A stretch of 64,000 bases of DNA from Candidatus Pacebacteria bacterium CG_4_9_14_0_2_um_filter_40_15 (GCA_002788675.1 PFRS01000005.1:131731-195730); one strand, 5' to 3'; counted from the first letter of the stretch, positions 4,232 to 25,588 are shown. Translations and numbers: made by a program. Notes: a model not told the origin generated them from the letters alone.

Positions 4232-6253
4232 CTACTCATACCGCAGTGCATTAAGGGCAGAAATTTTAGTGGCACGCTTGGCAGGATAAATGCCAGTAAG
4301 TATTCCAACCAATAATGAAAGAATAATAATTACCACAGTAAAAGAAGCTGGTATGTAAGAAATATCAACATATCCAACACCTTGAAAAACGGCAAATAGA
4401 GATAAGACCAGCCCAGCTAACTTACCAGCTAAAAACCCGGTTATAATACCTAGTAATCCACCCAAGATACCCATAATCATTGACTCTGTTAAGAATAATT
4501 CCTGGACTTCTGAAGATCTCATACCCATAGCTTTCATCAAACCAACTTCACGCGTTCTTTCTAATAAAGAAACTGTGAGAGTATTAAACATACCAAGTGC
4601 GGCTACTCCCAGGGCAATCATCCCCAGTACTGCCAAAATTACTCTAGTGGTTGAAAATAATGAATTAATTTGTTCCACTGTATCTGCTACAGATCTTGTA
4701 ACATAGCCCATTGCCTCGATTTGATGGCGAGTAGCTGACAAATCATCTTTATCCTTAACCACAACTTTTACCTGAGAATAATTTGTTATTCCAAGCGTGC
4801 GCAAATCCATAAATGGAACATAGAAGATAGGTGTTTTTTCCTCTGGTGTTACTCCTACAATTGTATATTCGGCAGGTGAAGATTCAATTTTTTCTGAAGA
4901 ATCTGAAAGTAACTCGCCAACAACTACAAATGAAGCGGTAAATTTCTTGCCAACTGCTTCATTTTCAGTAATTCCTAGTACCTGCAACATCGCTCTGTTT
5001 ACTACTGCTTCACGCTTAGCAGATCTTGCTAATTTAACTGTTTTGGTTTTTTCTGTTGTAACTTCTCCAGATTCCGAGGCAATCTCAACCCACTCCAATG
5101 AAGTTCCATTTGAGTCAGTTGTACCTGATATTTCTGTTGTGTCTCCCAAAACTGTACTAGAATTAATAGCTCCGTCCTCTGCAATAGTCATGCCAATTTC
5201 TGCAATGTAGCCTTCTAGCGAAAGTTGTTGTCCATCTTCACCACGCATTACCATATGAGTACCATCTTCACAGTCACCCTGCGATTCCGGGTCACATGAC
5301 TCTAGTTTCCACAATAATACAGAAGTTTTTACCCATTTTCCTAAAATAACATCATCTTTGGTTTTTCCAGAAGTACCTGCATCTGTATCACTTACATACT
5401 TCTCACCCCAAACTTCAGATCCAGAAATAGAATCAGCAACCTTCTTGGTATATCCTAAAATTTCTGAATCAGTTGTTGCATCTGCACGAACTTTAAGCCA
5501 AGTTCCTGAATCAATGGCAAAGGTAACATCTCTAATTTCTTCACCCCTTACATCAAAAATATTGTCTGCTTTCTCACCCATAATTTCAGTCACAATACTG
5601 CCAGCATCAGTGACTATTTCATTACTATCAAAAATCTTTCCTGTAGATGGTTGAATTGCAGACTGACGCAAATAATCAGAGGTAACTCCATAAACCGCCA
5701 TATCAGAAACAGAACTTTGATAGTTAACTCTACCTACCACTGCTATTAATGGTAAAGACATCTCAATTGCACTAATTTCTGAAAAATCATTCAAGGTTTT
5801 ATCTGTAATCTTGGCTTTACCTCCAGCTTGTGAAGAAACATCAGTTTGACGCATTTCTTCAAGTCTCGCCACACGGGTAACTACCAATTCTTGTAATCCA
5901 TATCCAATGGAAACCAAGAAGACAATTGAACCAATTCCAATCATCATGCCACCAATGGTAACAGTGGTTCTAGTGCTTTTTGATTGCATATTACGTATGG
6001 CAAGCTCGATTAAGTTAATTCTGGAGATTGTTTTATTGCGTTTATAGTCAAAAACCTTCACCGCTTTAGAATACACTTTGTGTAAAGGTGTGCTTAATTT
6101 TGGAGATATAAAACGAGAAATAATTGGCAATCTCAATATCCATGAAATAACTCTCGCAACTAAATAGAGCAAGAGTAGAAGAATAAATGTGGTTGTTTGG
6201 AACAAAGCTCCAGGAAAATTGCTGAATAGATTTTGTTTTAATATTCTAAACAT
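4232..6253 (-). CDS. ABC transporter permease, FtsX/MacB family, with a very large extracytoplasmic domain
   Basis: C-terminal FtsX signature 'LLERTREVGLMKAMGMRSSEVQELFLTESMIMGILGG' and N-terminal 'INLIELAIRNMQSKSTRTTVTIGGMMIGIGS'. The likely start is the ATG at 6253-6251, which overlaps the ATPase stop in an ATGTTTAG junction; the ORF track extends to 6304. Confidence 0.7.
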   Translation of the reverse strand: MFRILKQNLFSNFPGALFQTTTFILLLLLYLVARVISWILRLPIISRFISPKLSTPLHKVYSKAVKVFDYKRNKTISRINLIELAIRNMQSKSTRTTVTIGGMMIGIGSIVFLVSIGYGLQELVVTRVARLEEMRQTDVSSQAGGKAKITDKTLNDFSEISAIEMSLPLIAVVGRVNYQSSVSDMAVYGVTSDYLRQSAIQPSTGKIFDSNEIVTDAGSIVTEIMGEKADNIFDVRGEEIRDVTFAIDSGTWLKVRADATTDSEILGYTKKVADSISGSEVWGEKYVSDTDAGTSGKTKDDVILGKWVKTSVLLWKLESCDPESQGDCEDGTHMVMRGEDGQQLSLEGYIAEIGMTIAEDGAINSSTVLGDTTEISGTTDSNGTSLEWVEIASESGEVTTEKTKTVKLARSAKREAVVNRAMLQVLGITENEAVGKKFTASFVVVGELLSDSSEKIESSPAEYTIVGVTPEEKTPIFYVPFMDLRTLGITNYSQVKVVVKDKDDLSATRHQIEAMGYVTRSVADTVEQINSLFSTTRVILAVLGMIALGVAALGMFNTLTVSLLERTREVGLMKAMGMRSSEVQELFLTESMIMGILGGLLGIITGFLAGKLAGLVLSLFAVFQGVGYVDISYIPASFTVVIIILSLLVGILTGIYPAKRATKISALNALRYE

Positions 6254-7034
6254 GTTGTGTATTCCCAGATTTATCTTCAGATGTTTTAAGATCACCATTA
6301 CCACGTTTGCTTTTTAACTCAGTAAGTAAGGCTTGTTTATCTGATTCATCATATTCACCCACAACTTCACCATTAAACATCTTAATAGCTGTCTTAGCGT
6401 ATTTAATGTACTCAAGATCGTGGGTAACCATGACTATAGTTTTAGCGGTTTTTTTGTTTAGTGAGGATAAAAGTTGCATGAGTTCTTGACCAGATTCATA
6501 ATCAAGATTTCCAGTTGGCTCGTCGGCAATAATTACTTCTGGGTTTGAAACCAGTGCTCTGGCTAGTGAAACTCTTTGTTGTTGTCCACTAGAAAGTTCT
6601 GTAGGAATATAGTTAGACCATTCACTCATTTCTACCATATCCACAACTTCACGAGCTTTTTTAAGTGATTCAAGCTTACTAGCACCCAAAAGCAATAAAG
6701 GGAAAGCAACATTTTCAACAACAGTTAATGATTTAATCCAGTTTGGTTGCTGATACACCATACCAATGTGTTCTTTTCTAAAATCAGATCTATCATCTTC
6801 ATTATTTGAAGTATATAAATTTTTACCAGAAAAAAGAACGCTACCTTTATTTGGTGCCTCAAGGCCTAAAATCGTATGAAGTAGCGTTGATTTACCACAT
6901 CCAGATGGGCCAAAGATAACTAAAAAATCGCCACTGTTAATTTCTAGATTGATATCTTTTAAAACAGGCACATTTGCGCTAGCCACTACAAATGATTTAA
7001 AAAGATTTTGAACTTTAAATAATGCCTGATTCAT
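6246..7034 (-). CDS. ABC transporter ATP-binding protein (MacB/LolD-like)
   Basis: Walker A 'GPSGCGKSTLL', ABC signature 'LSGGQQQRVSLARAL', Walker B 'IIADEPTGNLD'. Confidence 0.8.
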   Translation of the reverse strand: MNQALFKVQNLFKSFVVASANVPVLKDINLEINSGDFLVIFGPSGCGKSTLLHTILGLEAPNKGSVLFSGKNLYTSNNEDDRSDFRKEHIGMVYQQPNWIKSLTVVENVAFPLLLLGASKLESLKKAREVVDMVEMSEWSNYIPTELSSGQQQRVSLARALVSNPEVIIADEPTGNLDYESGQELMQLLSSLNKKTAKTIVMVTHDLEYIKYAKTAIKMFNGEVVGEYDESDKQALLTELKSKRGNGDLKTSEDKSGNTQHV

Positions 7035-7035
7035 C

Positions 7036-10000
7036 TTAGTTTTTTCCTAGTCTACTAAGGAAGCCAAAGGCTTCTTGTAAGTTGCTAATTACTAGGTTAA
7101 GGGCGTTTTCGGTGGTTTTTGGTGTAATGGTTACGGTGTCTATGGATTTAGCAATGTTCCCCGCGGTATCTTTAGACAACGCTCTTAAGTGATAGACCTT
7201 GCTTGGAGTAAGTCCTGAAATAATTACTAAATGATTGTAGGTAAGATTACTGTCTTCTTGAGTTTTTTGAGCATAAGTAACCCCCGTACCTTCACCAAAC
7301 TCGACTTGAGATGTTGCTGGTTCATCGGTGTTCCAAGAAACGATTAATTGAGCAGTGGATTCCTGTGCGGTACTCGCAGTTTGGGGAATAACTGAACCCT
7401 CCACAAAGAGTTTGCTAATTTGAGCAGGTCTGGTGTCGGTAGCAGTTGTAAGTCTTTGAGAGTCAGAAACTGCTTGGTTGCCAATTTTATCTCTGCCTTT
7501 GACCACCAAATTGTAGTTAGTTTGCGGAGCCAATCCTCGAATTATCATTTGATGCTCTCCTGAAATGAGATCAATATTAACCTCATCTTTAACTGCAGAC
7601 GGGTTGTTTTCTGGATAATAAGAAATAATAGAAGAAACTGCTGTGTTGGTGTTCCAAGTTATGAGCAGAGTTGATTGGGCAGTGTTAGACACTTGTTGGA
7701 TACGAACACCACTGATTTTAGGACGTGGTAGAGTTTCAAAATCTAGTACAGTTCCTTCATACTCTTCATCTTCACTATCAAAAGTATTTATTTTGTAGTA
7801 ATATTTCGTCCCATCTGCCAGACCTGTAAGCTCGGCAGTATAGGTAGTTTCGCTTGTTGAGGTAGACATCTCTTTAACTCCACCAAAATCAGAACTAGTT
7901 CCATAATAAACCTTAACTTTAGAGGCATCTTTGGAAGTAAACTCTATAATAGCGGTATCCAAACCTATATTTTTTGCGACAACATCTTTAACTGTTGGAG
8001 CAGGAGAGGTAGTAAACTCGTTTTCTTCACTGCTTCCAGTATTACCATCTTCATCTGTCCATTTGGCTTTGTAGTAATATTTTGTTCCTGGTTTCAGGCC
8101 AGTAAGATCAATTGAATGATTAGTGACTTGGTCGGAGTTACTTGGTTCAACATCATTGTACTTACCCCTACTAGTACCAAACTGAATTTTACTATCAGAA
8201 GTTCTAGAAGTTGACCAGCTTATTGTAGCTTTTTTGGTAGTAATATCACTTACCTCAGGCTCTGATTCTAAGCTTGGAGCAGATGTCCACTTGCCTGTTG
8301 GGGTAATAGTAACTGCATTTGTGCCACTGCTAGTGGCATTAGCGCCGTCTTTGGTATAAATCTTGTAATAATATTGTGCAGATGATGGAGTGGTATCTAC
8401 GTATGATATGCCACTAGTAGTTCCTACCTGCGAAAAAGTAGTGCCATCACTAGAGCGGTGTACTAAATAGGTTAGGTTTCCTGCTCCCTGATAGCTTGGG
8501 GCTGTCCAAGTAAGAGTTACATTCCACTGTTCTTGAGATTTAATAGAAGAGTCGGACGAAACTAGATTAGCAACATTATCTGGATCAGTAGAGTTAAGAG
8601 TAAACGTGCCGGTTATATAGTTAGATGGTGAATAATTAGGAGTACTCGCATCATCAATGGCCACTACATAAACTGTGTTAGTGCCTTTGTTTACATTTGG
8701 CAAAGCCCCAGCTGAAACTGTTGTACTGGTACCGTTATCAATATAGGTAGTGCTGTTACCTTGCAGAGTCGATAGGGTTGATGGTGGAGAAGTATTGACC
8801 ATGTAGTAATAATGTGTCACGGCTTGACCAGCACTTGGTGTTGCTTCTGGCCACGAGAGTGCAAAGCTGTTGGAGGTAGATGTTGATGGGGTGACTGTTA
8901 CATTCTCAAGCTCATCAAAAGCAGGAGCAGCCCCTCCATAAGACAAGTTACAGGTTCTATAAGTAGAAGCCGATGAAATATTACCAGAAGCATCAACTGA
9001 TCTGAAGTAGACAATATTATTTCCAGAAATAATTGAAGAACCATCTTGTTCCTGTGTGAGTGTCCGTGAGGTTTCACTAGTTGGCAGATAGTTATTTACA
9101 CCCAAGACCGATTCTGTGGTAGTTCCAAGCCAAGTTCCTGCAGTAGAGTTAATCTGATACTGCCAACCCAAAACGCCAGAATTATCATCTACTGTAGCGG
9201 CACTTCCAGATGTTGGCCAAGAAAAATTCATATCTGCCACATTAGAAAATGATCCAGAAGCACAAGAAATATATGATGTATTGGTTGGTGTAATGTTATC
9301 GAATCTAAATTGGAACTGCTCACTGGCACCTCCAAAAACTTGGCCTGCATTATCTATGGCTTTAATGTTTAAATAATAGGGATCACTAGAAGTAGTCAAC
9401 CATGGACTACCCTTGTAACTTGAGGTAGCAAAATCAATACTGGTGCTAGAGACTATAAACTGACAAGTAGTACCAGCGGTAGATAACGGGCTAGTTCCCA
9501 ACAATCCCTTACTTGTGGCAGGATTACCTGCACTATCAGTTCCTAAATACAAACAGTATCCTTTCAAACCACTCCCCCCAGCGGTATCAGCGCCAGCAGT
9601 CCAGGAAAAGTATGGTGACTCGTTCTTTGTCCAATCATTGGAGGACATACTTGTGCCGCCATTCGATCTAGTCATGGCAAGTGCTGAGGCGTTGGTATCT
9701 GGGGCAGTTGTATCGGTGGTTAAACCAATCGAGACATGAGGTAAATATGGCACATCAGCCCCACCTGAGGTGAATATTGCTTTGACAGAAATTTTGGTAG
9801 AAGTGATTGATAAAGCTTGCATTGCAGTTTGCGTTAACTGAGCAGGAGTATTCACATGGGTAGTAGTATTGCTAGCTGTTTGCCAATTTGCGCCGTCATA
9901 GTACTTCCAACTACCACCACTTTCACAAGTAGAACCATCATCGGTACAAAGTTGGTAGGAGATACTACTATTCGTGCCAGTTGTAGCATCCTGAGTACAA

Positions 10001-11613
10001 GTAGAACCAGAAAGAGTGCCTTCACAAAATGTATCCCAGCTGGCTACTAAAGCGTTAGAATAGGCAGTTGTTGTGTAAACACTATATTCACCTTGTTTGA
10101 TTAAGGAAAAGTCATCTAAAACAACAGTTTTGCCAGATTTAACACTCACACCATATTCGCGTGACTCATTAGCACCCACAACTGATCCAGACAATTTCCA
10201 CCAACCACTGCCCATATCGGTATAGGTAGTGCTCACAGTTGAGCCATTGTAGTAAAGTTCTGCAATGAGAGCATTAACAGTACCACCTTCACTACCACTG
10301 GTGTTATCGTACACAAAAACAGATAAATCATAGGTAGATGTATCACCTACATTGATAGATTGATACACCTTACCATCGGTGACAGAACCAATAGAAACGG
10401 CGTTTCCGCCGGCCGCTGAGCGTCCGGCATTAGAGGAGAAAGATTGCGAGATTGCTACAGGATCACTGGCGCAACGAAACCCGAGATTGCCGCCCTGACT
10501 TCCTGACGTATTGTACAAAAAGAGAGCGAAAGCCCCAGCATACGTCCCATTAACCCAATTACCGCCGCGGAGGAACGCGTTGTTCAACGCACCACCATAT
10601 ACTTGACCCATTCCATAGGTAGACAAATAACTGGCATTTGAAGGACCGTACAAATCACGTGCCCCACTAGCCAAATTAGCACTATTCCATTCAACCCAAC
10701 CGGCAGTAGTGTTAATAGCAGTTGATTGAATATCGCTATTCCAGTCCCAAACGTTACCAGACATATCCCAAATTTCACTACCATTGCTCAGGGTGTACTT
10801 AGCTTTGGTGTCACGTCCCGTGCCATATTCCGGGTCTGTGCCGTTGTAGCCAACGCTATCCAGCGTACCAACATTCCCCCTAAACATCCCACCCCCTGCA
10901 GCTACTGTTGAACCAACTGTGGCATTTGCCCAGTTGGCAGTTTGGCTTTCGGCATTTCTTGTAATCGTCATCCACTCTGCGTTGCTAATTAAATGGGTGC
11001 CATTAGGACACGAGGCAATAGCTTGAGTTTGGGTAATGTGGACAATTGGAGCACCATTGGCAGTAGAAACTACTTTCTCTTTATCAAAGCCTACAATATC
11101 TCGGTAATCCAAGCCTAAGCCAGAATCAGCTACGGCACTACAGGCTGCGGCAGTATCTCCGTCTCCATCTGTGGTACAGTCATATTTGGCTTCGTACTGC
11201 ATGGCTAAAAAATTATCTGTTGAAAAAGTAGCATTGCCAGGAATTTCCACCCAGCCGGTATCTGGCATTGCCAGAGTATTCCACGAAGTAACATCTGAAG
11301 CAAAACTGGGATTAGCAAATTCATTTGCTCCTACAGCTCCACCAGTTGGTTGAGCTCCACTGTTGTCTATAGTTGTTAAGCTGGCGGTGTAATCGCCAGC
11401 AGTAGAGGCATCTAGTGTCCAAACTTTGGCTGAGTCGTTAAGTGCAAATATTTGAGGTAGTTTTCCAGAGAGTGCGCCATACATACCTATAGCGAGTCCT
11501 GAGGCCATAAAAAAAATAGCTACCAAATTAAACTCGATTCTATTAAACTGAAACCGAGGTTCTAAAAGGTACTTGCTAATTTTTTTTATTATATTCACTA
11601 ACCTTACTTTCAT
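7036..11613 (-). CDS. Giant membrane-anchored surface protein and DGR target: N-terminal TM, FGE-sulfatase/C-type-lectin-fold domain ('WDMSGNVWDWNSD', 'NLGFRCAS') carrying the variable repeat, then ~1100 aa of Fn3/Ig-like repeats
   Basis: Hydrophobic segment at residues ~28-48. FGE/SUMF1-type motifs around residues 270-385. Recurring Fn3-like 'GTKYYYK' and 'YYYKI' motifs in the C-terminal half. The VR at 10462-10579 falls in this gene. Confidence 0.7.
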   Translation of the reverse strand: MKVRLVNIIKKISKYLLEPRFQFNRIEFNLVAIFFMASGLAIGMYGALSGKLPQIFALNDSAKVWTLDASTAGDYTASLTTIDNSGAQPTGGAVGANEFANPSFASDVTSWNTLAMPDTGWVEIPGNATFSTDNFLAMQYEAKYDCTTDGDGDTAAACSAVADSGLGLDYRDIVGFDKEKVVSTANGAPIVHITQTQAIASCPNGTHLISNAEWMTITRNAESQTANWANATVGSTVAAGGGMFRGNVGTLDSVGYNGTDPEYGTGRDTKAKYTLSNGSEIWDMSGNVWDWNSDIQSTAINTTAGWVEWNSANLASGARDLYGPSNASYLSTYGMGQVYGGALNNAFLRGGNWVNGTYAGAFALFLYNTSGSQGGNLGFRCASDPVAISQSFSSNAGRSAAGGNAVSIGSVTDGKVYQSINVGDTSTYDLSVFVYDNTSGSEGGTVNALIAELYYNGSTVSTTYTDMGSGWWKLSGSVVGANESREYGVSVKSGKTVVLDDFSLIKQGEYSVYTTTAYSNALVASWDTFCEGTLSGSTCTQDATTGTNSSISYQLCTDDGSTCESGGSWKYYDGANWQTASNTTTHVNTPAQLTQTAMQALSITSTKISVKAIFTSGGADVPYLPHVSIGLTTDTTAPDTNASALAMTRSNGGTSMSSNDWTKNESPYFSWTAGADTAGGSGLKGYCLYLGTDSAGNPATSKGLLGTSPLSTAGTTCQFIVSSTSIDFATSSYKGSPWLTTSSDPYYLNIKAIDNAGQVFGGASEQFQFRFDNITPTNTSYISCASGSFSNVADMNFSWPTSGSAATVDDNSGVLGWQYQINSTAGTWLGTTTESVLGVNNYLPTSETSRTLTQEQDGSSIISGNNIVYFRSVDASGNISSASTYRTCNLSYGGAAPAFDELENVTVTPSTSTSNSFALSWPEATPSAGQAVTHYYYMVNTSPPSTLSTLQGNSTTYIDNGTSTTVSAGALPNVNKGTNTVYVVAIDDASTPNYSPSNYITGTFTLNSTDPDNVANLVSSDSSIKSQEQWNVTLTWTAPSYQGAGNLTYLVHRSSDGTTFSQVGTTSGISYVDTTPSSAQYYYKIYTKDGANATSSGTNAVTITPTGKWTSAPSLESEPEVSDITTKKATISWSTSRTSDSKIQFGTSRGKYNDVEPSNSDQVTNHSIDLTGLKPGTKYYYKAKWTDEDGNTGSSEENEFTTSPAPTVKDVVAKNIGLDTAIIEFTSKDASKVKVYYGTSSDFGGVKEMSTSTSETTYTAELTGLADGTKYYYKINTFDSEDEEYEGTVLDFETLPRPKISGVRIQQVSNTAQSTLLITWNTNTAVSSIISYYPENNPSAVKDEVNIDLISGEHQMIIRGLAPQTNYNLVVKGRDKIGNQAVSDSQRLTTATDTRPAQISKLFVEGSVIPQTASTAQESTAQLIVSWNTDEPATSQVEFGEGTGVTYAQKTQEDSNLTYNHLVIISGLTPSKVYHLRALSKDTAGNIAKSIDTVTITPKTTENALNLVISNLQEAFGFLSRLGKN
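10398..10411 (-). promoter_or_regulatory. GC hairpin cggcg-tttc-cgccg (GAAA tetraloop on the coding strand) about 50 nt 3' of the VR; possible DGR homing hairpin/cruciform
   Basis: Read directly. DGR VRs are typically followed by a GC-rich stem with a 4-nt loop. Confidence 0.25.
10462..10579 (-). repeat. DGR variable repeat (VR), 118 bp, inside the target gene
   Basis: Aligns base-for-base with 15455-15572. Of 17 mismatches, 16 fall where the TR has A on the coding (minus) strand. The 21-nt 3' end 'gggtttcgttgcgccagtgat' is identical in both copies (IMH-like). Confidence 0.8.
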
Positions 11614-11776
11614 ACACGCACAAAAAGGCGCTTAACAAAAACGTTCCTTACTTAATAATACACATATTTTGAGCAAATGTTAATGCTAATTACAAGATGC
11701 AAGAAAGAGCTAGCTGAGTGCGATAAACAGAACTCATATAAAGAGAAGCATAAAGAATTATTTTCTGGCTATTGGA

Positions 11777-11809
11777 CAAAAAAATAGGAGAAGTAGATAA
11801 GTTTTCTCC
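11777..11809 (-). terminator. Rho-independent terminator after abiEii (minus-strand hairpin ggagaa...ttctcc followed by a T-run)
   Basis: Plus strand reads 'acaaaaaaataggagaagtagataagttttctcc'. On the minus strand this is a hairpin followed by 'tattttttt'. Confidence 0.45.
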
Positions 11810-11840
11810 TAGAACTATAAAGAGTTATGTTACGACAAAA

Positions 11841-12623
11841 TCATGAACTTTTTCTATCAATTGAACTCAATAACTTTTCAAGGTAGGTTTTTACATACTC
11901 AAATAGGCTTCCAAGTTTCTCGCGCTCACCTATTGGTACAAAGGGTCTCAAGTCTTTGATAAACTCATCCTTAGAAAAATCTTTCAACCTAGATATTAAT
12001 CTATCCACTTTAAAAACTTCATCATAATATTTCAACTTATTTTGAATCAAATCCAAATCAAATTTTGCACCAAGCTCTAGTAAGATCCAAAGATCATATA
12101 TATCTCGATGCTTTTCTCTCCTGAGTATTGCTCTGATTTTTTCTGCCAATATTTCGTTCTTACTCAAAGAGTTAACAAAACTCTGCACAATAACAGGGTA
12201 TTCTGATTCAATAATGCTTTTTGTAGGCTCTAAAACATTCTCCCTCATTGAAAAATCTAATTTTACGAAAACCGGATTTTTCAAAGATTGAACATTTGCT
12301 GTTAAAAGATATGTTTTTCCAGTTATGGTTTTTCTTTCCTTAAAGGTAAATGGATATTGATTTTCAATTTTACTGAAAAACTTATTGATTAGTTTTATAA
12401 ATACACCTTCATCAACTTGAACAGTAAAATCTAAATCCTCTGAAAATCTTTGTCCACCATAAAGTAAACGAATAGCAGTACCTCCCTTGAAGTAAATATC
12501 TCTTGAGAAACCTTCTTCATATAATTCTTTCAGAAATGTGATCTGAACAAATTCACGAGCCACAATTGATTCATTAATTTTATACTTTTTGGATAACTGA
12601 TTTAGCTGTGTTTGATTTATCAT
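11841..12623 (-). CDS. abiEii: AbiEii/AbiGii-family nucleotidyltransferase toxin (type IV TA)
   Basis: 'YFKGGTAIRLLYGGQRFSEDLDF' is the hallmark KGGTA nucleotidyltransferase motif of AbiEii/DUF1814. Confidence 0.6.
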   Translation of the reverse strand: MINQTQLNQLSKKYKINESIVAREFVQITFLKELYEEGFSRDIYFKGGTAIRLLYGGQRFSEDLDFTVQVDEGVFIKLINKFFSKIENQYPFTFKERKTITGKTYLLTANVQSLKNPVFVKLDFSMRENVLEPTKSIIESEYPVIVQSFVNSLSKNEILAEKIRAILRREKHRDIYDLWILLELGAKFDLDLIQNKLKYYDEVFKVDRLISRLKDFSKDEFIKDLRPFVPIGEREKLGSLFEYVKTYLEKLLSSIDRKSS

Positions 12624-12660
12624 TTTAGACCCTTAATTTTGGAGTGATAACGACATAAAT

Positions 12661-13308
12661 TTAGCTGGTATAAAAAGTGCAAGGCCATAAATATTTATCC
12701 GCTAATTCCTGAATACTTTTTGACAATTTATCTGGTAGTAGTTTAAAATATTCTTGGAATTTTGCCTTATCAATCGCAGAATAATCCATTTCATCTAAGT
12801 ATTGCTTCGTCTTTAAACCTTTGGCAATCATATACAGCTGATCTAACAAAGCTTTTTCTGGTAGAGCTATTAATGCATCTTCTTCTTTAATATAACCAGT
12901 AAATAAACTCGTACTTATTTGAGAATAGGTATACATTTTTTCTAAAACTTCTTTTTTTTGGGTAGATTTTGTTGTCACTGAGGTGATCTCTACGGGAAAT
13001 TGACTTAAAATTCCATAGTAATTAAGAGCTGTCTCAAATGAGATATATGAAGGCGAATATAAAAATTGAGCAATTTCAAAATCTGAAACTTCTGCATTTC
13101 CCAACAAATATTTGCCTTTTTCAAGAGAAATCAGTATTTTTTCATCAAGAAATCTTTTAATAAGATCCTCAAGTGTTCTTTTCGAGTCAATTTCAAGTAA
13201 GTTTTGAAGATCTTTGGTTAAAAAGGCTTTTTTACCCGAATCATTGATTGCATTTAAATATTTATACGTTGACATATACCACGGATTATACGTGGTTAAG
13301 CATATCAT
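12661..13308 (-). CDS. abiEi: AbiEi-family antitoxin/transcriptional regulator
   Basis: 'YISFETALNYYGILSQFP' matches the conserved AbiEi C-domain motif (Y-x-S-x-E-x-AL-x-x-xG). Lies directly upstream of abiEii. Confidence 0.5.
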   Translation of the reverse strand: MICLTTYNPWYMSTYKYLNAINDSGKKAFLTKDLQNLLEIDSKRTLEDLIKRFLDEKILISLEKGKYLLGNAEVSDFEIAQFLYSPSYISFETALNYYGILSQFPVEITSVTTKSTQKKEVLEKMYTYSQISTSLFTGYIKEEDALIALPEKALLDQLYMIAKGLKTKQYLDEMDYSAIDKAKFQEYFKLLPDKLSKSIQELADKYLWPCTFYTS

Positions 13309-14089
13309 GTCAAGGGTGAATCTTTTCTCAATTAAGATAACACAAAATGCCTAAACACTATTTATTTTCCGTAAGTAAATAATAGAGTAAGTAGGCATTG
13401 GCATGTTGCAAATGACCTTTAATTGATACTTTTGATTGTGTTAGCTCAAACTCGCTCAATTTCCCTTGTAAAAATTTCTTTTGTTTTTTCCTATACTTGC
13501 GTTGCATGTGCCTCAAAGTATCACCTCTCACCAAAACGTGATCATAAAAAATTCTATACCCCACAAACGGCACTCCATCAGTGACATTTTTAATTGTGTT
13601 TTTTTTGGGATGCAAACTCAAGCCCAACTTTCTATTTAAAAATTTCTCAATATCTTTATTTAACTGCTTCAGCTTCTTTTTATCTGGATGAATAATCAAA
13701 AAATCATCCATGTATCGAGCATACCAACGCTGTTTGAGGGTATGTTTTACGTATTGGTCAAGCTCATTTAGATAGATATTGGCAAAAAGTTGACTGGTTA
13801 GGTTTCCTATTGGTAAGCCTTTTCTTTCCCACTCCAATATAGGTGCATTTTCCTGATGGTTATTTTGATCACTGTTATTGAATTCAAAAAGTGAAAGTTG
13901 TTCGGGAATAGTTTTTTTAAAACTATTTTGGTGGATATGACTTGAAATATTCACCATATCTGCTTTTACTGAGTGAGTAACCACAATTCTTCTAAGAAGC
14001 TCGTTGGTTCTTGGGCAAGTTATTGATTTTTGCAGGATTTCTAGCAAAGTATCCCAGTGAATGTTTTGAAAATACTTATGAATATCACA

Positions 14090-14837
14090 GGGTCTTGTGA
14101 CGTTTAGCATACGTTAGTGTGTTAATATGGTTGTAAGATCAATGAAAAATAGATATTGCAATCGATCACGACTTAGTGAGCACAAATTTAGACAACTTTT
14201 ACAATGTTTTTGTGACGATTTTGACACAGTTTTAACAGCAAAAAGTGTTGGAATTTCTCGTGAGCATGTAACCAAATATTTTGGTGCAATTCGTTTTAGA
14301 ATTGTCGAATTAAGTCAGTTAGAGGGTAAATTTTCAGGAGAAGTTGAGGTAGATGAAAGTTACTTTGGAGCAAAAAGAATTCGAGGTAAACGAGGACGTG
14401 GTGCCAGAGGAAAAATACCCGTTGTTGGGGTATTAAAAAGAGGTGGAAAGGTTTACACAAAGGTAGTAAAAAACTGTTCGAGAGAACAAATACTGCCAAT
14501 TTTGAAAGGTAAAATACTTGAGGAATCAACCGTGTTTACAGATGGTTGGAAAAGCTATCATGGATTGATTTATCAAGGATTTCAGCACTATAGAATCTAT
14601 CATTCAAAGAATGAATTTGCTCGAGGAAAAAACCACATTAATGGTATTGAAAGTTTTTGGAGTTTTTGCAAAAGACGTATGGCAAAACAAAATGGTGTGA
14701 GAAAAGATAAATTTCTGCTACACTTAAAGGAATCTGAGTTTAGATGGAATCATAGAAATGAAATGTATAAAGTACTTTTGGACGACTTAAAATTTAACCC
14801 ATTGACGCTCTAAACGTCACAAGACCCTATCACATTG
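14090..14837 (+). mobile_element. IS1595-family insertion sequence (~748 bp) with 18-bp terminal inverted repeats GGGTCTTGTGACGTTTAG and flanking 7-bp direct repeat TATCACA (14083-14089 and 14838-14844)
   Basis: TIRs and TSD read directly at both junctions. The transposase ORF lies inside. Confidence 0.7.
14127..14813 (+). CDS. IS1595-family (ISXO2-like) DDE transposase
   Basis: 'EVDESYFGAKRIRGKRGRGARGKIPVVGVLKRGGKVYTKVV' is the characteristic IS1595 transposase core (EVDE-Y-GG-K ... G-K). Confidence 0.7.
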   Translation: MVVRSMKNRYCNRSRLSEHKFRQLLQCFCDDFDTVLTAKSVGISREHVTKYFGAIRFRIVELSQLEGKFSGEVEVDESYFGAKRIRGKRGRGARGKIPVVGVLKRGGKVYTKVVKNCSREQILPILKGKILEESTVFTDGWKSYHGLIYQGFQHYRIYHSKNEFARGKNHINGIESFWSFCKRRMAKQNGVRKDKFLLHLKESEFRWNHRNEMYKVLLDDLKFNPLTL

Positions 14838-15245
14838 CAACACATAGAGTTCTCTTTCTTTTCCATATATACATCTAGCAGCCATGAGAAATTTTTTGAT
14901 TCTGCTTGCTCCAAAGTGTGTTCCCTTATATTTGCGACAAGCATACGAATCAAAAATAAACTTTTTTTCAAATATTGGCTCAATTTGTGCCACAAGGGAG
15001 TGCTGAATTATCCTATCTTTAAATGCAGGCGCAGAAATTCTCCTTGTTTTGGGCTCAAAAATTGTAAAATTGGTGTAGGGCTGAGGATAATATTCACCAG
15101 ATAAAAGAAGCTGTCTTAACTTTAATATATTGCTCTCAATAAAGTATTCATACTCCGCAACACTAATTCTGTCTCTTTTGCCTTTTCTTGCTTTGTAAAA
15201 TGATTTGAGTAACATCTCAAAACTAGAAATTTTATCAAACATCAT

Positions 15246-15454
15246 CTTACATAGTATCCTTATAAGCCCACTTTCCTCATAACTAAAAACATATGTTGCT
15301 AGCTATGAGGATACAGGCTTTTTGTTTTCCCTCAAGAAATTTATATGCTTGAAAGAAAGAGAAAATCTTGTGATCATAATGATCCAGGACATATATCCTT
15401 AAACATATGCCACTCATCTGGCGAAGCCAAATCTTACATGGACTTAATATTAGT
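15246..15454 (-). other. DGR spacer region between TR and RT, containing an imperfect hairpin (cctcata...tatgagg)
   Basis: Its position corresponds to the structured TR-RT spacer of known DGR RNAs. Confidence 0.3.
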
Positions 15455-15572
15455 ATCACTGGCGCAACGAAACCCGATATTGTTGTTCTGATTTCCTGTT
15501 GTATTGTTCAAATTGAGAGCGAAAGGTCCAGCATTCGTTCCATTATTCCAATTACCGCCGCGGAGGAACGCG
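15455..15572 (-). repeat. DGR template repeat (TR), 118 bp
   Basis: Non-coding copy of the VR. In the VR frame it reads AFLRGGNWNNGTNAGPFALNLNNTTGNQNNNIGFRCASD, with AAY (Asn) codons exactly at the positions that differ in the VR. Confidence 0.8.
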
Positions 15573-15605
15573 CACTGCGTTTGTATGATTTTCCCTTTAT
15601 AGTAA

Positions 15606-15947
15606 CTATACCACTTTCATCCAAGCTCGTAGCATTCGAGCAATCTCATTCATTTTTTCTGCACCAAATGCATATTGTTTGATACTTTTAAATTTAAGAT
15701 CTTTAGTCAGTCGTAATAATATTCGCAAAGTATCTAGGTCATTAGAAATTAATTGTTGTAATTTTTGTCTTTCTAACCCTTTTAGACTATTGGCCTTTGA
15801 AACTGTTATAACTAAAGCAATTACCCTTTCTTCAATTGCTTTGCCTAAAACCATTCTATGACTTTTAGGGATACGGTTTACTAAAGGATAAAACCAAAGT
15901 GCTTGGTCATACGTTTTTTGGAAAATAAGTAATTTTTCACACATCAT
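15606..15947 (-). CDS. avd: Avd-like accessory variability determinant (four-helix-bundle family)
   Basis: 113 aa. 'IFQKTYDQALWFYPLVNRIPKSHRMVLGKAIEERV' fits the Avd / 23S-IVS four-helix-bundle family. Sits immediately 5' of the TR on the same strand. Confidence 0.55.
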   Translation of the reverse strand: MMCEKLLIFQKTYDQALWFYPLVNRIPKSHRMVLGKAIEERVIALVITVSKANSLKGLERQKLQQLISNDLDTLRILLRLTKDLKFKSIKQYAFGAEKMNEIARMLRAWMKVV

Positions 15948-16219: not shown

Positions 16220-16552
16220 ATGAGAAAACTCGTATTTCTTCAAAGTATATTTCTTACCTCTTTAGTTGTTGCAACTCCAGCATTTGCACAAACTGCCGAA
16301 GTTGGACAAATTCAATCATTCATCCAAAGTGTGATTCAAGTTATGGTCACGCTCTCTGGCTTTATTGCAGCAGGTTTCATAGTCTGGGGTGGCGTTGGCT
16401 ACATTACTAGTTCAGGAAACCCTGAATCACTCGAAAAGTCTAAAAAAACAATTTTATACTCAGCCATTGGCCTCACCCTTGTGCTTGGAGCATTCGTTCT
16501 TTCCAATATGGTTAGCCAATTAGCATCCACTGCTTTTGGTGCAGGAATGTAA
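16220..16552 (+). CDS. VirB2/TrbC-like pilin-type small membrane protein (signal peptide + two hydrophobic helices)
   Basis: Signal peptide 'ATPAFAQT', then two hydrophobic stretches. First gene of the T4SS-like operon. Confidence 0.4.
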   Translation: MRKLVFLQSIFLTSLVVATPAFAQTAEVGQIQSFIQSVIQVMVTLSGFIAAGFIVWGGVGYITSSGNPESLEKSKKTILYSAIGLTLVLGAFVLSNMVSQLASTAFGAGM

Positions 16553-16567
16553 GCGAAGGGATATGTA

Positions 16568-17869
16568 TTGATGCGAAAGGTACTCACCACCATTGGAATT
16601 ATTGCCACCTCATTCTTGTTTTTTAGTACTCCTGTTTTTGCACAAACTACCAATCCTGACATCCTCGAATACACCAACAACACTTTACAAATCATCACTC
16701 TTATTTCAACCGCAGCCGCGGTGTTTTTTTTGGTCAAAGCAGGGTATCTCTATATTACTTCATCAGGGAAACCTGAAGCTCTAGAATCTGCAAAGAACAC
16801 CATTAGAAACGCCATAATCGGCTTAACCTTGGTGTTGGCAGCAAATATAGTGACATCTGTCTTTCAGCACGCATTAAACTCTCAGACGACATCAGGAACT
16901 GGCACACCTATTGACGTTGTCAGTATTGAAACTGCTGAACCTTCTGAAGGCTTAACTCAGGTGCTTATTGATGCCATTGGTAGTTTTATTCAAAACATCG
17001 TGGAAAGCTCAACTGAGCCAATTGTGAATGGGGTGTTGGGCTACCTCACCACTACACCTACACTTTTGGATAATGAAGTAGTACGTAACTTCTGGTTTGT
17101 CACTGTTGGAATTGTTGACGCCTTGTTTGTCTTAGTGGTAGCTCTCATGGGACTGCAAGTTATGAGTGCTAGTACTTTTGGATTTGAAGAAGTTGAGATT
17201 AAACAGTTGTTGCCAAGGTTAGGACTGAGTTTTTTAGCTGCAAATATTTCACTCTTTTTGGCCGATTATGCCATTATCACTTGCAACGCCTTGGTTGAGG
17301 CTATACTAGACTCCACTGGAGGACTAAATCACGCTTGGATTCAAGCAGCATTTAATCCGACTGCAGTAATTTCTGGAACCACGCCACTCATCATTTTGAT
17401 TTTCATGGTTATGTTCTTGGTTGTCTCAATCGTGCTGTTACTCATGTATATCAGTCGCTTAATTATTATTTCCCTGGGGGCAGTTCTTTCGCCATTTATC
17501 TTCTTACTCTCAGCACTCCCAAAGTTTTCAGACCTCGCCTCAATTGCAATCAAGACATATCTTGTCAGCGTGTTTATCGTGTTTGTGCATGTGGTGATAA
17601 TTCAACTCGCTAGTTCGTTTTTGACCCTGCCTGAGCACAGTGAAAACTCACTTATTTCTATTGCCGTTGGCATTGGACTGTTTATCACCCTCCTCAAAAC
17701 TCCAAATCTGATGATGCAAATGGTCATGTACACCGCTAACTCTGGATCATTGAAAAAATTAGGAAACCAAATTATAAATGTGATGACAACAGATAACGCT
17801 TCAGTTGCAAGCAGAGCTCAGGCTCAAGACTCTGCATCCAAACTATCAAGAAAGGCAATAAAACTATGA
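16568..17869 (+). CDS. VirB6/TrbL-like polytopic membrane protein whose N-terminal ~100 aa is a paralog of the preceding pilin-like protein
   Basis: N-terminus 'STPVFAQTT...GYLYITSSGKPEALESAKNTIRNAIIGLTLVLAANIV' parallels the upstream ORF 'ATPAFAQTA...GYITSSGNPESLEKSKKTILYSAIGLTLVLGAFVL'. At least six further TM segments follow. Confidence 0.45.
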   Translation: MMRKVLTTIGIIATSFLFFSTPVFAQTTNPDILEYTNNTLQIITLISTAAAVFFLVKAGYLYITSSGKPEALESAKNTIRNAIIGLTLVLAANIVTSVFQHALNSQTTSGTGTPIDVVSIETAEPSEGLTQVLIDAIGSFIQNIVESSTEPIVNGVLGYLTTTPTLLDNEVVRNFWFVTVGIVDALFVLVVALMGLQVMSASTFGFEEVEIKQLLPRLGLSFLAANISLFLADYAIITCNALVEAILDSTGGLNHAWIQAAFNPTAVISGTTPLIILIFMVMFLVVSIVLLLMYISRLIIISLGAVLSPFIFLLSALPKFSDLASIAIKTYLVSVFIVFVHVVIIQLASSFLTLPEHSENSLISIAVGIGLFITLLKTPNLMMQMVMYTANSGSLKKLGNQIINVMTTDNASVASRAQAQDSASKLSRKAIKL

Positions 17870-18372
17870 GAAGCCGAGTCATACCCGCTCAAATAACCAC
17901 TGTAGAAGACAAAATTGCAGGTGATTTTAGTCTGACGCAAATTATGTTGTTACTGTTACCAGTCTTAATTGCTTCGTTTATTTACGCAATCCTTCCACCA
18001 AGCATGAGCTTTGTACTCTACAAACTAATCTTGGCGAGCATTTTTGCCATTGCAAGCATCACTCTGGCAATTAGAGTTAAGGGCAGAATTATTGCAAGTT
18101 GGCTTGTGGTCTTGATCCGATACAACATTAGGCCAAAATACTATGTATTCAACAAAAACTCTGCTACAAATCGAGAAATTATTCAACCTGAGGTTGAGAT
18201 TATCACTGTTGAAGAAAAAGAAACTAAAAGCGCTGATCTAAAAAGTATTCAGAACCTTGATATCAAAGATATTCTCAAACTTCGACACATTCTTGATACA
18301 ACAGATTTCAATCTAACCTACCGCTCCGGCAAGAAAGGAGGACTCAATGTGGCCTTTGAAAAAGTCTCTTAG
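17866..18372 (+). CDS. Small two-TM membrane protein (VirB3-like position)
   Basis: Hydrophobic N-terminal half; located between the VirB6-like and VirB4-like genes. Confidence 0.3.
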   Translation: MRSRVIPAQITTVEDKIAGDFSLTQIMLLLLPVLIASFIYAILPPSMSFVLYKLILASIFAIASITLAIRVKGRIIASWLVVLIRYNIRPKYYVFNKNSATNREIIQPEVEIITVEEKETKSADLKSIQNLDIKDILKLRHILDTTDFNLTYRSGKKGGLNVAFEKVS

Positions 18373-23350: not shown

Positions 23351-23351
23351 T

Positions 23352-25582: not shown

Positions 25583-25588
25583 ATTAAT

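What the first reader, a model, noticed from the sequence alone, without database searches (positions are those of the whole stretch)
10462..15947. Diversity-generating retroelement with a clean adenine-mutagenesis signature between TR (15455-15572) and VR (10462-10579)
A 118-nt repeat occurs once inside the 1525-aa minus-strand gene and once in non-coding DNA just 3' of an Avd-like ORF and 5' of an RT gene. Aligning the two copies gives 17 mismatches. Sixteen of them are at positions where the template copy has A on the coding strand, and the VR copy has G, C or T there. One mismatch is C/G.

Translated in the VR frame, the TR reads ...NWNNGTNAGPFALNLNNTTGNQNNNIGFRCASD, with AAY codons at the diversified sites. 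The VR reads ...NWVNGTYAGAFALFLYNTSGSQGGNLGFRCASD.

The RT carries 'IGNLTSQ' in place of the group-II 'QGxxxSP'. The gene order avd - TR - spacer - RT is the canonical DGR cassette.
Basis: partly seen in the sequence, partly recalled or inferred. Interest (0 to 1): 0.85.

Follow-up and report, generated by a model that had tools for sequence, protein, structure and literature searches.

The report
DGR whose reverse transcriptase is IS-disrupted
This is a genuine diversity-generating retroelement in a tiny groundwater (CPR/Patescibacteria) bacterium that once rewrote part of a giant surface protein, but in this genome its reverse transcriptase gene has been cut in two by a jumping gene, so the "hypermutation" signature is probably a fossil here; the element type is well known.

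Summary
TR (15455-15572) and VR (10462-10579) are 118 nt with 17 mismatches: 16 at TR adenines, one C>G (P~1e-9). Avd, a bRT-like RT, a CLec/FGE-fold target and covarying DGR-RNA structures make this a real DGR of the CPR clade (Ca. Pacebacteria, Crystal Geyser MAGs).

1. The RT gene is not intact. A 738-bp IS1016-group (IS1595 family) element lies at 14090-14827, with perfect 18-bp inverted repeats and a 7-bp target duplication. It sits right after the codon of the motif-A catalytic Asp. Removing it restores a 380-aa RT that is 100% identical to intact RTs on sibling contigs.
2. The VR is internal (aa 345-384 of 1525), which is rare for CLec targets. A GC-rich hairpin lies inside the ORF 34 nt downstream.
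3. An AbiE toxin-antitoxin pair sits between RT and target.

Population data show at least 4 VR alleles that differ almost only at TR-A sites. The window's allele, however, is invariant across 12 haplotypes, and every IS-bearing contig read carries it. The long-form module (avd-TR-RT-target-ABC/MacB) is conserved in at least 11 CPR species.

Verdict: a known kind, naturally knocked out here. Interest is moderate to low.

The parts
15606..15947 (-). avd accessory gene (113 aa)
   Evidence: Pfam bAvd PF22296, 64.3 bits against a cutoff of 40. NCBIfam DivGenRetAVD, 73.1 bits, just under its cutoff of 80.
15587..15598 (-). Upstream strand (AAAGGGAAAAUC) of a long-range RNA duplex that brackets the TR
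   Evidence: Pairs with 15356-15367. Across 7 related loci, cognate duplexes average -15.1 kcal/mol against -10.1 for non-cognate pairs; no permutation out of 5000 did as well. It resembles the 'cPRT Stop duplex' of Handa et al..
15455..15572 (-). Template repeat (TR), 118 nt, 34 adenines, 11 AAY codons in the VR frame
15246..15454 (-). TR-RT spacer that encodes a structured RNA. It includes a 10-bp stem with a tetraloop (15388-15411), the downstream duplex strand (15356-15367), an A-rich tract (GGGAAAACA, within 15323-15333) and a nested helix (15266-15318).
   Evidence: Consensus structure on 10 loci: 39 pairs, 92.6% of cells paired against 41-49% for slid controls, and 26 pairs with changes on both sides.
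14828..15245 (-). RT gene, N-terminal fragment (aa 1-139: fingers up to the motif-A Asp). The called ORF 14817-15245 runs a few codons into the IS.
14090..14827 (+). IS1016-subgroup (IS1595 family) insertion sequence, 738 bp. It has perfect 18-bp terminal inverted repeats (GGGTCTTGTGACGTTTAG) and a transposase ORF at 14127-14813 (228 aa).
   Evidence: NCBIfam transpos_IS1595, 163 bits against a cutoff of 75. Pfam DDE_Tnp_IS1595, E=4e-30. The motifs DESYFG/VFTD/HINGIESFW/ESEFRWN match the IS1016 signature given in PMC12561309.
14083..14089 (.). 7-bp target-site duplication TATCACA. The second copy is at 14828-14834.
13358..14089 (-). RT gene, C-terminal fragment (aa 138-380: IGNLTSQ, YMDD, thumb). 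The called ORF 13358-14110 takes its ATG from inside the IS inverted repeat.
12661..13308 (-). AbiEi antitoxin (start codon uncertain). Cargo lying between RT and target.
   Evidence: PADLOC AbiEi, 97 bits. NCBIfam, 49 bits, below its cutoff. The cassette is absent in L043 and L046.
11841..12623 (-). AbiEii toxin (nucleotidyltransferase)
   Evidence: Pfam AbiEii, E=1.3e-31. PADLOC, 144 bits.
7036..11613 (-). DGR target gene, 1525 aa. Layout: N-terminal hydrophobic anchor (aa ~28-50), CLec/FGE domain (aa ~100-384), conserved linker, ~600 aa of unassigned sequence, then FN3-like repeats (aa ~1000-1500).
   Evidence: AF2 model of aa 100-400, pLDDT 90.2. Best PDB matches: TaqVP 5vf4, FGEs, TvpA 2y3c, Mtd 1yu*.
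10462..10579 (-). Variable repeat (VR), aa 345-384 of the target
10408..10428 (-). GC-rich hairpin (GCCGGaCGC-TCA-GCGgCCGGC) inside the ORF, 34 nt 3' of the VR. Candidate cis-acting target-recognition element.
   Evidence: DNA fold of this 33-nt segment: z=-3.5; for the 96-nt region, z=-3.06. The hairpin is 86% GC in a gene of 42% GC. It is built from rare codons, joint probability 3.5e-5. It is conserved in most long-form loci: 80% of cells paired against 28-64% for slid controls, with CG<->UA compensation.
4232..7034 (-). ABC ATPase (6246-7034) and MacB/FtsX-type permease (4232-6304) immediately downstream of the target. The linkage is conserved across the family.

Best explanation
This is a chromosomal diversity-generating retroelement of a CPR bacterium (Candidatus Pacebacteria, Crystal Geyser). 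On the minus strand the order is avd, TR, a structured spacer RNA, RT, an AbiEi/AbiEii cargo pair, and then a 1525-aa membrane-anchored surface protein. The CLec/FGE-fold domain of that protein carries the VR at aa 345-384.

When the element is intact, the proposed mechanism (inferred by homology to the Bordetella system) runs as follows:
1. The avd-TR-spacer transcript folds around an RT-Avd complex.
2. cDNA is cis-primed from the spacer and copied from the TR, with misincorporation opposite adenines.
3. The cDNA replaces the VR, probably with help from the GC-rich hairpin 34 nt downstream inside the ORF.
4. This recodes up to 11 AAY codons on the ligand-binding face of the lectin domain.

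In this genome a 738-bp IS1016-type element has inserted directly after the codon for the motif-A catalytic aspartate (LQCD|IHKYF). The RT is split into two ORFs. The element is therefore most likely dead or dormant here, and the 16-of-17 adenine signature records an earlier homing event.

Shown directly: the A-specific TR/VR differences, the identities of all the parts, the IS with its duplication, clean in-silico restoration of the RT, intact alleles in the population, alternative VR alleles that differ at A sites, and RNA covariation.

Inferred: the biochemical mechanism, the loss of activity, and the role of the hairpin.
For: - A-bias: 16 of 17 mismatches fall on TR adenines, P=1.3e-9. There are only two copies in the window.
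- RT identity: the repaired 380-aa RT hits bRT (8ub7) at E=2e-49, against about 1e-15 to 1e-17 for group II and retron RTs. IGNLTSQ aligns with bRT IGSLTSQ, and YMDD is present.
- Avd: Pfam bAvd, 64 bits.
- Target fold: FGE-sulfatase Pfam hit. The AF2 model has pLDDT 90, and its best PDB match is the DGR variable protein TaqVP.
- IS: perfect 18-bp inverted repeats, a 7-bp duplication, and an IS1595 transposase at 163 bits.
- The IS is real: the same IS-split arrangement appears in independent assemblies, namely JGI 3300025142, JGI 3300025124, ENA ERZ17986944 and NCBI MAG proteins.
- Intact alleles exist: 379-380-aa RTs in the same 90% cluster, one of them 100% identical, sit in the same synteny on other contigs.
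- No other RT is present in the window.
- Population record: at least 4 VR alleles exist within 96-100%-identical flanks. Allele 2 has 22 of 22 differences at TR-A. Allele 3 has 16 A and 2 T.
- The window's allele is invariant in 12 protein haplotypes that differ at 13 positions elsewhere.
- Spacer RNA: 92.6% of cells paired against 41-49% for slid controls, with 26 compensated pairs.
- A duplex flanking the TR co-varies among loci.
- Eleven GTDB CPR species carry the same module with uninterrupted RTs and A-only mismatches.
Against: - Loss of activity is inferred only from the gene structure. No reads or expression data were available.
- Only 64 kb of a genome of about 1.2 Mb was seen, so a second RT elsewhere cannot be excluded.
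- Two contigs with an intact RT (L004, L046) carry exactly the same VR allele as the IS-bearing genome. VR stasis is therefore not explained by the IS alone. The element may be rarely active even when intact.
- The Avd score is just below NCBIfam's curated cutoff (73 against 80).
- The hairpin shows limited true covariation. Much of its support comes from sequence conservation and codon choice, and its loop is 3 nt, not the 4-nt GRNA loop of phage DGRs.
Confidence: 0.85

Rival explanations
1. The DGR is still active in this genome despite the insertion. There are three routes. The two RT fragments could reassemble: the N fragment retains the motif-A Asp, and the C fragment gains an ATG from the IS inverted repeat and repeats the Cys-Asp codons through the target duplication. 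A second RT elsewhere in the genome could act in trans. Or rare precise excision of the IS could restore the gene in a subpopulation, making the IS an on/off switch.
For: - The C-fragment ORF starts at an ATG inside the IS terminal repeat and re-encodes 'CD'.
- TR, avd, the spacer RNA structures and the hairpin are all intact and identical to those of RT-intact siblings.
- Intact and disrupted alleles coexist in the same sample series.
Against: - The break falls within the palm active site. No ribosome-binding site or promoter evidence was found for the C fragment; the promoter scan found fewer sites than in shuffled sequence.
- No other RT is present in the 64-kb window.
- All three IS-bearing contigs read across the VR (the window, L001, L002) carry one VR allele. 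L001 is a 212-kb contig, and the same target protein occurs on a 1.19-Mb contig.
- Precise excision of DDE-type IS elements is rare (established knowledge).
Confidence: 0.1
2. The IS insertion is an assembly or binning artefact, a chimeric join, and the real genome has an intact RT.
For: Intact-RT contigs from the same site exist.
Against: - The junctions carry a perfect 7-bp target-site duplication and perfect 18-bp inverted repeats. Chimeras do not produce these.
- The identical junction is found in independent JGI and ENA assemblies and in the proteins of four NCBI MAGs (142-aa and 250-aa RT fragments plus the transposase).
Confidence: 0.02
3. The repeat pair is an ordinary duplicated gene fragment that diverged by point mutation or gene conversion, unrelated to reverse transcription.
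For: One mismatch (C>G) is not at an adenine. Two TR alleles exist, so the TR itself can mutate.
Against: - The A-specificity has P~1e-9.
- Independent VR alleles have 22 of 22 and 16 of 18 differences at TR adenines.
- The same pattern appears in 11 or more related species next to avd and RT.
- Mismatches concentrate in codon positions 1 and 2 of AAY codons.
Confidence: 0.01

Closest known systems
Bordetella phage BPP-1 DGR (mtd-avd-TR-brt; bRT-Avd-RNA structures 8ub7-8ube)
   Same: - Adenine-specific TR-to-VR information transfer.
- An Avd accessory protein.
- The RT has I/LGxxxSQ and YMDD motifs and is the best PDB sequence match (E=2e-49).
- A CLec-fold target.
- A stem-loop with a tetraloop just 3' of the TR, and a duplex formed by sequences flanking the TR, as described by Handa et al. 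(bioRxiv 10.1101/2023.10.23.563531).
- A GC-rich hairpin 3' of the VR, within the 4-34 bp range reported by Guo et al. 2011 (PMC3240598).
   Different: - Chromosomal in a CPR bacterium, not in a phage.
- The target lies downstream of the RT, not upstream.
- The VR is internal (1141 aa follow it), not C-terminal.
- The hairpin lies inside coding sequence and has a 3-nt loop, not a GRNA tetraloop.
- The RT has an insert of about 49 aa relative to bRT (query 174-222).
- In this window the RT gene is broken by an IS.
CPR/Patescibacteria DGR clade (clade 2 of Roux et al. 2021, PMC8144416; 'CPR set' of Wu et al. 2018, PMC5758913)
   Same: - Cellular, aquatic or groundwater, restricted to Patescibacteria.
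- The nearest RT homologues come from Moranbacteria, Shapirobacteria, WWE3, Collierbacteria and Daviesbacteria.
- The target is membrane-anchored and has a CLec/FGE domain.
   Different: Both surveys describe VRs as overwhelmingly C-terminal. Most homologues of this CLec domain are 350-525 aa proteins that end at GFRCAR*, and many have a prepilin N-terminus. The long form seen here has about 1140 aa after the VR and is coupled to a MacB-type ABC transporter. I did not find it described in the papers I could search.
Internal-VR DGR targets (Wu et al. 2018: 9/34 Ig1, 9/10 Ig2, one CLec2)
   Same: The VR lies inside the ORF, so the 3' cis elements must overlap coding sequence. Wu et al. note this explicitly.
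   Different: Here the fold is CLec/FGE, for which only one internal case was listed. The embedded hairpin can be seen as rare-codon, GC-rich sequence that encodes a conserved SGRxAAGG linker.
DGR variable proteins TaqVP (5vf4), TvpA (2y3c), Mtd (1yu0-4); formylglycine-generating enzymes
   Same: The AF2 model of aa 100-400 matches them. Foldseek gives E=1.8e-7 for TaqVP, 3e-7 for FGE, 1e-4 for TvpA and 2e-4 for Mtd.
   Different: Sequence identity is low (13-20%) and TM-scores are 0.35-0.50. The match is at fold level only.
IS1016 subgroup of the IS1595 family (e.g. ISApl4, 712 bp, 14-bp IRs GGGGCTG..., 7-9-bp direct repeats; PMC12561309)
   Same: The size is 738 bp, with a single DDE transposase of 228 aa. 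The inverted repeats begin with GGG and the target duplication is 7 bp. The motif pattern DESYFG...V(Y/F)TD...HINGIE(N/S)FW...E(C/S)EFR(F/W)N is shared.
   Different: The inverted repeats are 18 bp and have a different sequence. The host is a CPR bacterium. Copy number in the genome is not known.

Membership tests
Diversity-generating retroelement (DGR) | TR/VR near-repeat whose differences fall at TR adenines | tested here: met
   16 of 17 at A, P=1.3e-9. Other VR alleles have 22/22 and 16/18 at A.
Diversity-generating retroelement (DGR) | RT of the DGR type (motif-4 [I/L]GxxxSQ; closer to bRT than to group II or retron RTs) | tested here: met
   IGNLTSQ and YMDD are present. PDB phmmer: bRT 8ub7 at 172 bits, E=2e-49, against 59-67 bits for group II and retron-type RTs. 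NCBIfam showed no DGR-RT family among its hits; the best hit, the group II model, scores 138 bits against a cutoff of 300, so it fails that family.
Diversity-generating retroelement (DGR) | An intact, expressible RT gene adjacent to the TR | tested here: not met
   In the window the RT is split at aa 139 by a 738-bp IS. It is met on sibling contigs L004, L007, L042-L047.
Diversity-generating retroelement (DGR) | Accessory variability determinant (Avd) | tested here: met
   Pfam bAvd, 64.3 bits against a cutoff of 40. NCBIfam DivGenRetAVD, 73.1 bits against a cutoff of 80, marginally below.
Diversity-generating retroelement (DGR) | VR lies in a C-type-lectin/FGE-fold (or Ig) ligand-binding domain of the target | tested here: met
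   FGE-sulfatase Pfam hit, 26.6 bits against a cutoff of 23.3. AF2 pLDDT 90.2. Foldseek best match is TaqVP, followed by FGEs, TvpA and Mtd.
Diversity-generating retroelement (DGR) | VR at the C-terminus of the target (typical, not obligatory) | tested here: not met
   The VR covers aa 345-384 of 1525, and 1141 aa follow it. Literature: internal VRs are rare exceptions.
Diversity-generating retroelement (DGR) | GC-rich hairpin/cruciform shortly 3' of the VR | tested here: inconclusive
   An 8-bp GC stem (with one A.G mismatch in the window) and a 3-nt loop lie 34 nt after the VR. For the 33-nt segment z=-3.5. The hairpin uses rare codons and is 86% GC. 80% of cells are paired in 20 lineages, against 28-64% for slid controls. 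True covariation is limited, and the loop is not GRNA.
Diversity-generating retroelement (DGR) | Structured RNA around the TR (stem-loop with tetraloop 3' of the TR; duplex between sequences 5' and 3' of the TR) | tested here: met
   A 10-bp stem with a UACG loop (UAAG in the window) has 8 of 10 pairs compensated. The whole spacer is 92.6% paired against 41-49% for slid controls. The flanking duplex is stronger for cognate than for non-cognate pairs. This was compared only with the verbal description in Handa et al..
Diversity-generating retroelement (DGR) | Adenine-mutagenic cDNA synthesis and retrohoming actually occur | not testable with these tools
   There is only the historical record: multiple VR alleles in one species and contigs that end inside the VR in RT-intact populations.
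IS1595 family, IS1016 subgroup | DDE transposase of the family | tested here: met
   NCBIfam NF033547, 163 bits against a cutoff of 75. Pfam PF12762, E=4e-30. The IS1016 motif pattern is visible in the translation.
IS1595 family, IS1016 subgroup | About 700-745 bp, terminal inverted repeats starting with GGG, 7-9-bp target duplication | tested here: met
   738 bp, 18/18-bp inverted repeats GGGTCTTG..., and the duplication TATCACA. The 7-9-bp range comes from PMC12561309. The size range is recalled from ISfinder and was not checked.
AbiE type IV toxin-antitoxin | Adjacent AbiEi antitoxin and AbiEii nucleotidyltransferase toxin | tested here: met
   AbiEii: Pfam E=1.3e-31 and PADLOC 144 bits. 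AbiEi: PADLOC 97 bits, while NCBIfam gives 49 bits, below its cutoff of 150.

The most novel reading that the evidence does not exclude
The window belongs to a conserved subclass of CPR DGRs that I did not find described. Its module is avd-TR-RT-(cargo)-1500-aa target-ABC ATPase-MacB permease.

In this subclass the diversified lectin domain sits near the membrane-anchored N-terminus. The DGR's 3' cis-acting hairpin has been forced into the reading frame, where it is kept by rare GC-rich codons that encode an SGRxAAGG linker. This would be a natural counter-example to the idea that VRs must be C-terminal because cis elements need non-coding DNA.

The IS-split RT, which coexists with intact alleles in a sampled time series, would also serve as a natural knockout for measuring DGR activity in an uncultivated episymbiont.
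Probability: 0.45. Interest if true: 0.5.

Novelty: new member of a known kind. Interest (0 to 1): 0.35.

Why it matters
The element itself is a textbook DGR from a clade (CPR/Patescibacteria) where DGRs are known to abound. Three details give it some value.

1. It is a clean natural knockout. One recent IS insertion in the RT active site leaves every other part untouched, and intact alleles occur in the same aquifer samples. Read-level comparison of the two genotypes could measure how much VR turnover really depends on the cis RT in an uncultivable symbiont.

2. The internal VR, with a hairpin embedded in the ORF, speaks to how DGR target recognition copes with coding constraints. Wu 2018 and Roux 2021 raised this point without examining it.

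3. The target is strictly linked to a MacB-type ABC transporter in 11 or more species. This hints at how this giant variable adhesin is handled at the envelope.

Tried and rejected
- Alternative genetic code or frameshifts as the cause of the broken RT: rejected. The gap is a discrete 738-bp IS with inverted repeats and a target duplication, and removing it restores the frame exactly.
- Group I/II intron or homing endonuclease in the RT: rejected. There are no Rfam hits in the window, and the ORF is an IS1595 transposase.
- 'VR frozen because of the IS': only partly tenable. RT-intact contigs L004 and L046 carry the same VR allele.
- Additional VRs or targets in the window: none found.
- Other RT genes in the window: none found.
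- A TR:spacer priming duplex through the conserved GAUCAC motif (complementary to the TR 3' GUGAU): considered by eye and dropped. The pairing did not co-vary in L010, L016 or L022.
- A second hairpin with a GAAA loop (CGGCG-GAAA-CGCCG): present in the window but not conserved in relatives, so it is not claimed.
- GC-rich hairpins downstream of the VR in short-form relatives: mostly absent. The hairpin is specific to the long-form family.
- Promoter and terminator scan: uninformative, with fewer promoter-like sites than in shuffles.
- Pfam on the ~600 aa after the VR: nothing significant.
- Paul et al. 2017, the CPR DGR paper, is not in the searchable library.

Full report
**Observation**

The two copies are real and sit exactly where stated. 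TR 15455-15572(-) and VR 10462-10579(-) align without gaps over 118 nt and have 17 mismatches. Sixteen are at TR adenines (A>G 9, A>T 6, A>C 1) and one is C>G. With 34 A in the TR, the chance of at least 16 of 17 falling on A is 1.3e-9. A pattern with N at every TR-A finds just these two sites in the window. Both quoted translations are right. The VR lies in the 1525-aa ORF 7036-11613(-). The TR is non-coding and lies between the avd ORF (15606-15947) and the RT start at 15245.

Translating 13300-15245(-) shows that the RT stops after '...YVLQCD' and resumes in another frame at 'CDIHKYFQNI...IGNLTSQ...YMDD...'. Between the two pieces lies a 738-bp element (14090-14827). Its features are:
- perfect 18-bp terminal inverted repeats, GGGTCTTGTGACGTTTAG;
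- a 7-bp target-site duplication, TATCACA;
- a 228-aa ORF on the opposite strand that is an IS1595-family DDE transposase (Pfam E=4e-30; NCBIfam 163 bits against a cutoff of 75).

Its size, GGG ends, 7-bp duplication and the motifs DESYFG/VFTD/HINGIESFW/ESEFRWN place it in the IS1016 subgroup. This follows from comparing with ISApl4 in PMC12561309.

Deleting the IS and one duplication copy in silico gives an uninterrupted 380-aa RT. The insertion point is immediately after the Asp that aligns with bRT D138, one of the three catalytic aspartates. No other RT is present in the window.

**Identity of the parts**

- RT: the repaired RT matches the Bordetella DGR RT (8ub7) at E=2e-49. Group II and retron-type RTs reach only about 1e-15 to 1e-17.
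- Avd: it hits Pfam bAvd at 64 bits, and NCBIfam's Avd model at 73 bits against a cutoff of 80.
- Target: aa 184-382 hit FGE-sulfatase. An AF2 model of aa 100-400 has pLDDT 90.2, and its best PDB neighbours are the DGR variable protein TaqVP, FGEs, TvpA and Mtd.
- Cargo: an AbiEi/AbiEii pair lies between the RT and the target.

**Origin and population**

Exact-sequence look-ups place the locus in Candidatus Pacebacteria MAGs from Crystal Geyser (CG_4_9_14_3_um_filter_40_12 and others) and on many JGI, ENA and Logan contigs. The IS-split arrangement recurs in independent assemblies (L001, L002, L003 and NCBI proteins), so it is not an artefact. The C-terminal fragment is recorded on 42 contigs, against about 8 for the listed intact RT variants. 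This is a rough assembly-level count.

Intact 379-380-aa RTs from the same 90% cluster (P0001 is 100% identical) occur in the same synteny on L004, L042-L044, L046 and L047, and in the 96% strain L007. The AbiE cassette (about 1.49 kb) is itself an indel. It is absent in L043 and L046, and a DUF3800 gene replaces it in L007.

**VR alleles**

Within 96-100%-identical flanks there are at least four VR alleles:
- Allele 1: the window, L001, L002, L004 and L046.
- Allele 2: L005, L008 and the prefix of L043. All 22 differences from the TR are at A.
- Allele 3: L006 and L007. Differences are 16 at A and 2 at T.
- A fourth, partial allele in L042.

Allele 1, however, is unchanged in 12 distinct protein haplotypes that differ at 13 positions elsewhere in the gene. 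In P0140, 13 of its 22 differences from the window protein fall within the 40-aa VR. This is an all-or-none replacement pattern. The three IS-bearing contigs read across the VR (the window, L001, L002) carry allele 1. L001 is a 212-kb contig, and the same target protein occurs on a 1.19-Mb contig. Two RT-intact contigs end 29 and 49 nt into the VR, which is what VR heterogeneity does to assemblies. This is suggestive only. Because RT-intact L004 and L046 also carry allele 1, stasis cannot be blamed on the IS alone.

Two TR alleles exist, with A or T at offsets 45 and 73. All VRs have T at offset 73, so that 'mismatch' in the window may be a TR change.

**RNA and DNA cis elements**

- Spacer RNA: the TR-RT spacers of 10 related loci share a consensus structure of 39 pairs. 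92.6% of cells are paired, against 41-49% when partners are slid, and 26 pairs have changes on both sides. The structure includes a 10-bp stem capped by UACG (UAAG in the window, 15388-15411).
- Flanking duplex: a 12-bp duplex joins AAAGGGAAAAUC just 5' of the TR to GAUUUUCUCUUU 3' of it. Cognate pairs are more stable than non-cognate ones (-15.1 against -10.1 kcal/mol; 0 of 5000 permutations did as well). These elements fit the 'Avd-binding stem-loop' and 'cPRT Stop duplex' that Handa et al. report for 207 of 278 Avd-containing DGRs, CPR ones included.
- Hairpin 3' of the VR: an 86%-GC hairpin (10408-10428) lies 34 nt after the VR, inside the ORF. It is built from rare codons (joint probability 3.5e-5 given the amino acids) and encodes part of a conserved linker, DPVAISQSFSSSSGRxAAGG. 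In 20 lineages, 80% of cells pair, against 28-64% for slid controls, with CG<->UA compensation. Covariation is limited, and the loop is 3 nt, not GRNA. Two homologues without a nearby DGR (L056, L057) lack the hairpin, but L060 keeps it. I rate its role as plausible but unproven.

**Family context**

Most homologues of the lectin domain are 350-525-aa proteins that end at GFRCAR*, often with a prepilin N-terminus. The window belongs to a long form with about 950-1144 aa after the VR. The long form occurs in metagenomes (L010-L027) and in 14 GTDB species. Eleven of those species have avd-TR-RT upstream, uninterrupted RTs and 5-17 A-only mismatches. In nearly every locus whose sequence extends past the target gene, an ABC ATPase and a MacB/FtsX permease follow it; L023 is the exception.

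The literature treats C-terminal VRs as near-universal and explains this by the need for non-coding cis elements (Roux 2021). Wu 2018 lists internal VRs as exceptions, with only one among CLec types.

**Verdict**

This is a real DGR of a known clade. In this genome an IS1016-type insertion has recently knocked out the RT, and the VR is internal. The finding is a new member of a known kind, perhaps a rare architectural variant of it. Interest is moderate to low.

Noticed in passing
window 21416-26320 (+): A complete QatABCD anti-phage defence system lies next to a CPR-type T4SS/pilin cluster (16220-21392). PADLOC scores: QatA 900 bits, QatB 335, QatC 613, QatD 319. The DGR therefore sits in a defence-island-like neighbourhood.
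   Followed up: partly
window ~11761-13253; L043, L046, L007: The AbiEi/AbiEii cassette between the RT and the target is a presence/absence polymorphism of about 1.49 kb in the same species. A 96% strain (L007) carries a DUF3800 gene in that slot instead. The RT-target intergenic region acts as a cargo hotspot.
   Followed up: partly
window 4232-7034 (-); L012, L013, L020, L027, L048-L061: The long-form DGR target is followed by a LolD-like ABC ATPase and a 690-aa MacB_PCD/FtsX permease in nearly every locus that extends past the target gene (50-75% identity across species). L023, with a shorter C-terminal extension, showed no ABC hit. The linkage suggests a functional coupling of the variable adhesin to a MacB-type transporter.
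   Followed up: partly
window TR offsets 45 and 73 (15527 and 15499); L043, L044, L046, L007: Two TR alleles circulate, with A (window) or T at both offsets. All VR alleles have T at offset 73. The same VR allele 1 occurs with both TR alleles, which implies recombination or a TR mutation after the last homing event.
   Followed up: partly
L015 3920-4600: A related locus has avd followed directly by only about the last 120 aa of the RT, with no detectable TR, upstream of a long-form target. It looks like a second, deletion-type decay of this DGR family.
   Followed up: no
window 14090-14110 (-): The ATG of the C-terminal RT fragment ORF (MLNVTRPCDIHKYF...) lies inside the IS terminal inverted repeat. 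The 7-bp target duplication re-encodes the Cys-Asp of motif A, so both fragments contain 'CD'. This is probably coincidental but bears on any split-RT hypothesis.
   Followed up: no
L042 (end) and L043 (end): Two RT-intact contigs from Crystal Geyser samples end 29 and 49 nt into the VR. IS-bearing contigs run through it (L001 is 212 kb). This is consistent with VR heterogeneity breaking the assembly only where the RT is intact. It rests on two contigs only.
   Followed up: partly
reconstructed RT aa 174-222 (window ~13835-13981): The RT carries an insertion of about 49 aa relative to bRT, between the stretch that follows motif A and the IGNLTSQ motif (the gap in the HMMER alignment to 8ub7). 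Its function is unknown.
   Followed up: no
L049, L051, L053, L054, L056, L058, L061 (record titles): Several GTDB or NCBI MAGs that carry this clearly CPR-type module are titled Pseudomonadales, Gammaproteobacteria or Anaerolineae. These are probably mislabelled or contaminated bins.
   Followed up: no
window 15407-15682 (+): A 91-aa ORF on the opposite strand overlaps the TR and the end of avd. JGI annotation calls it a gene, but it has no family hit and is probably spurious.
   Followed up: no
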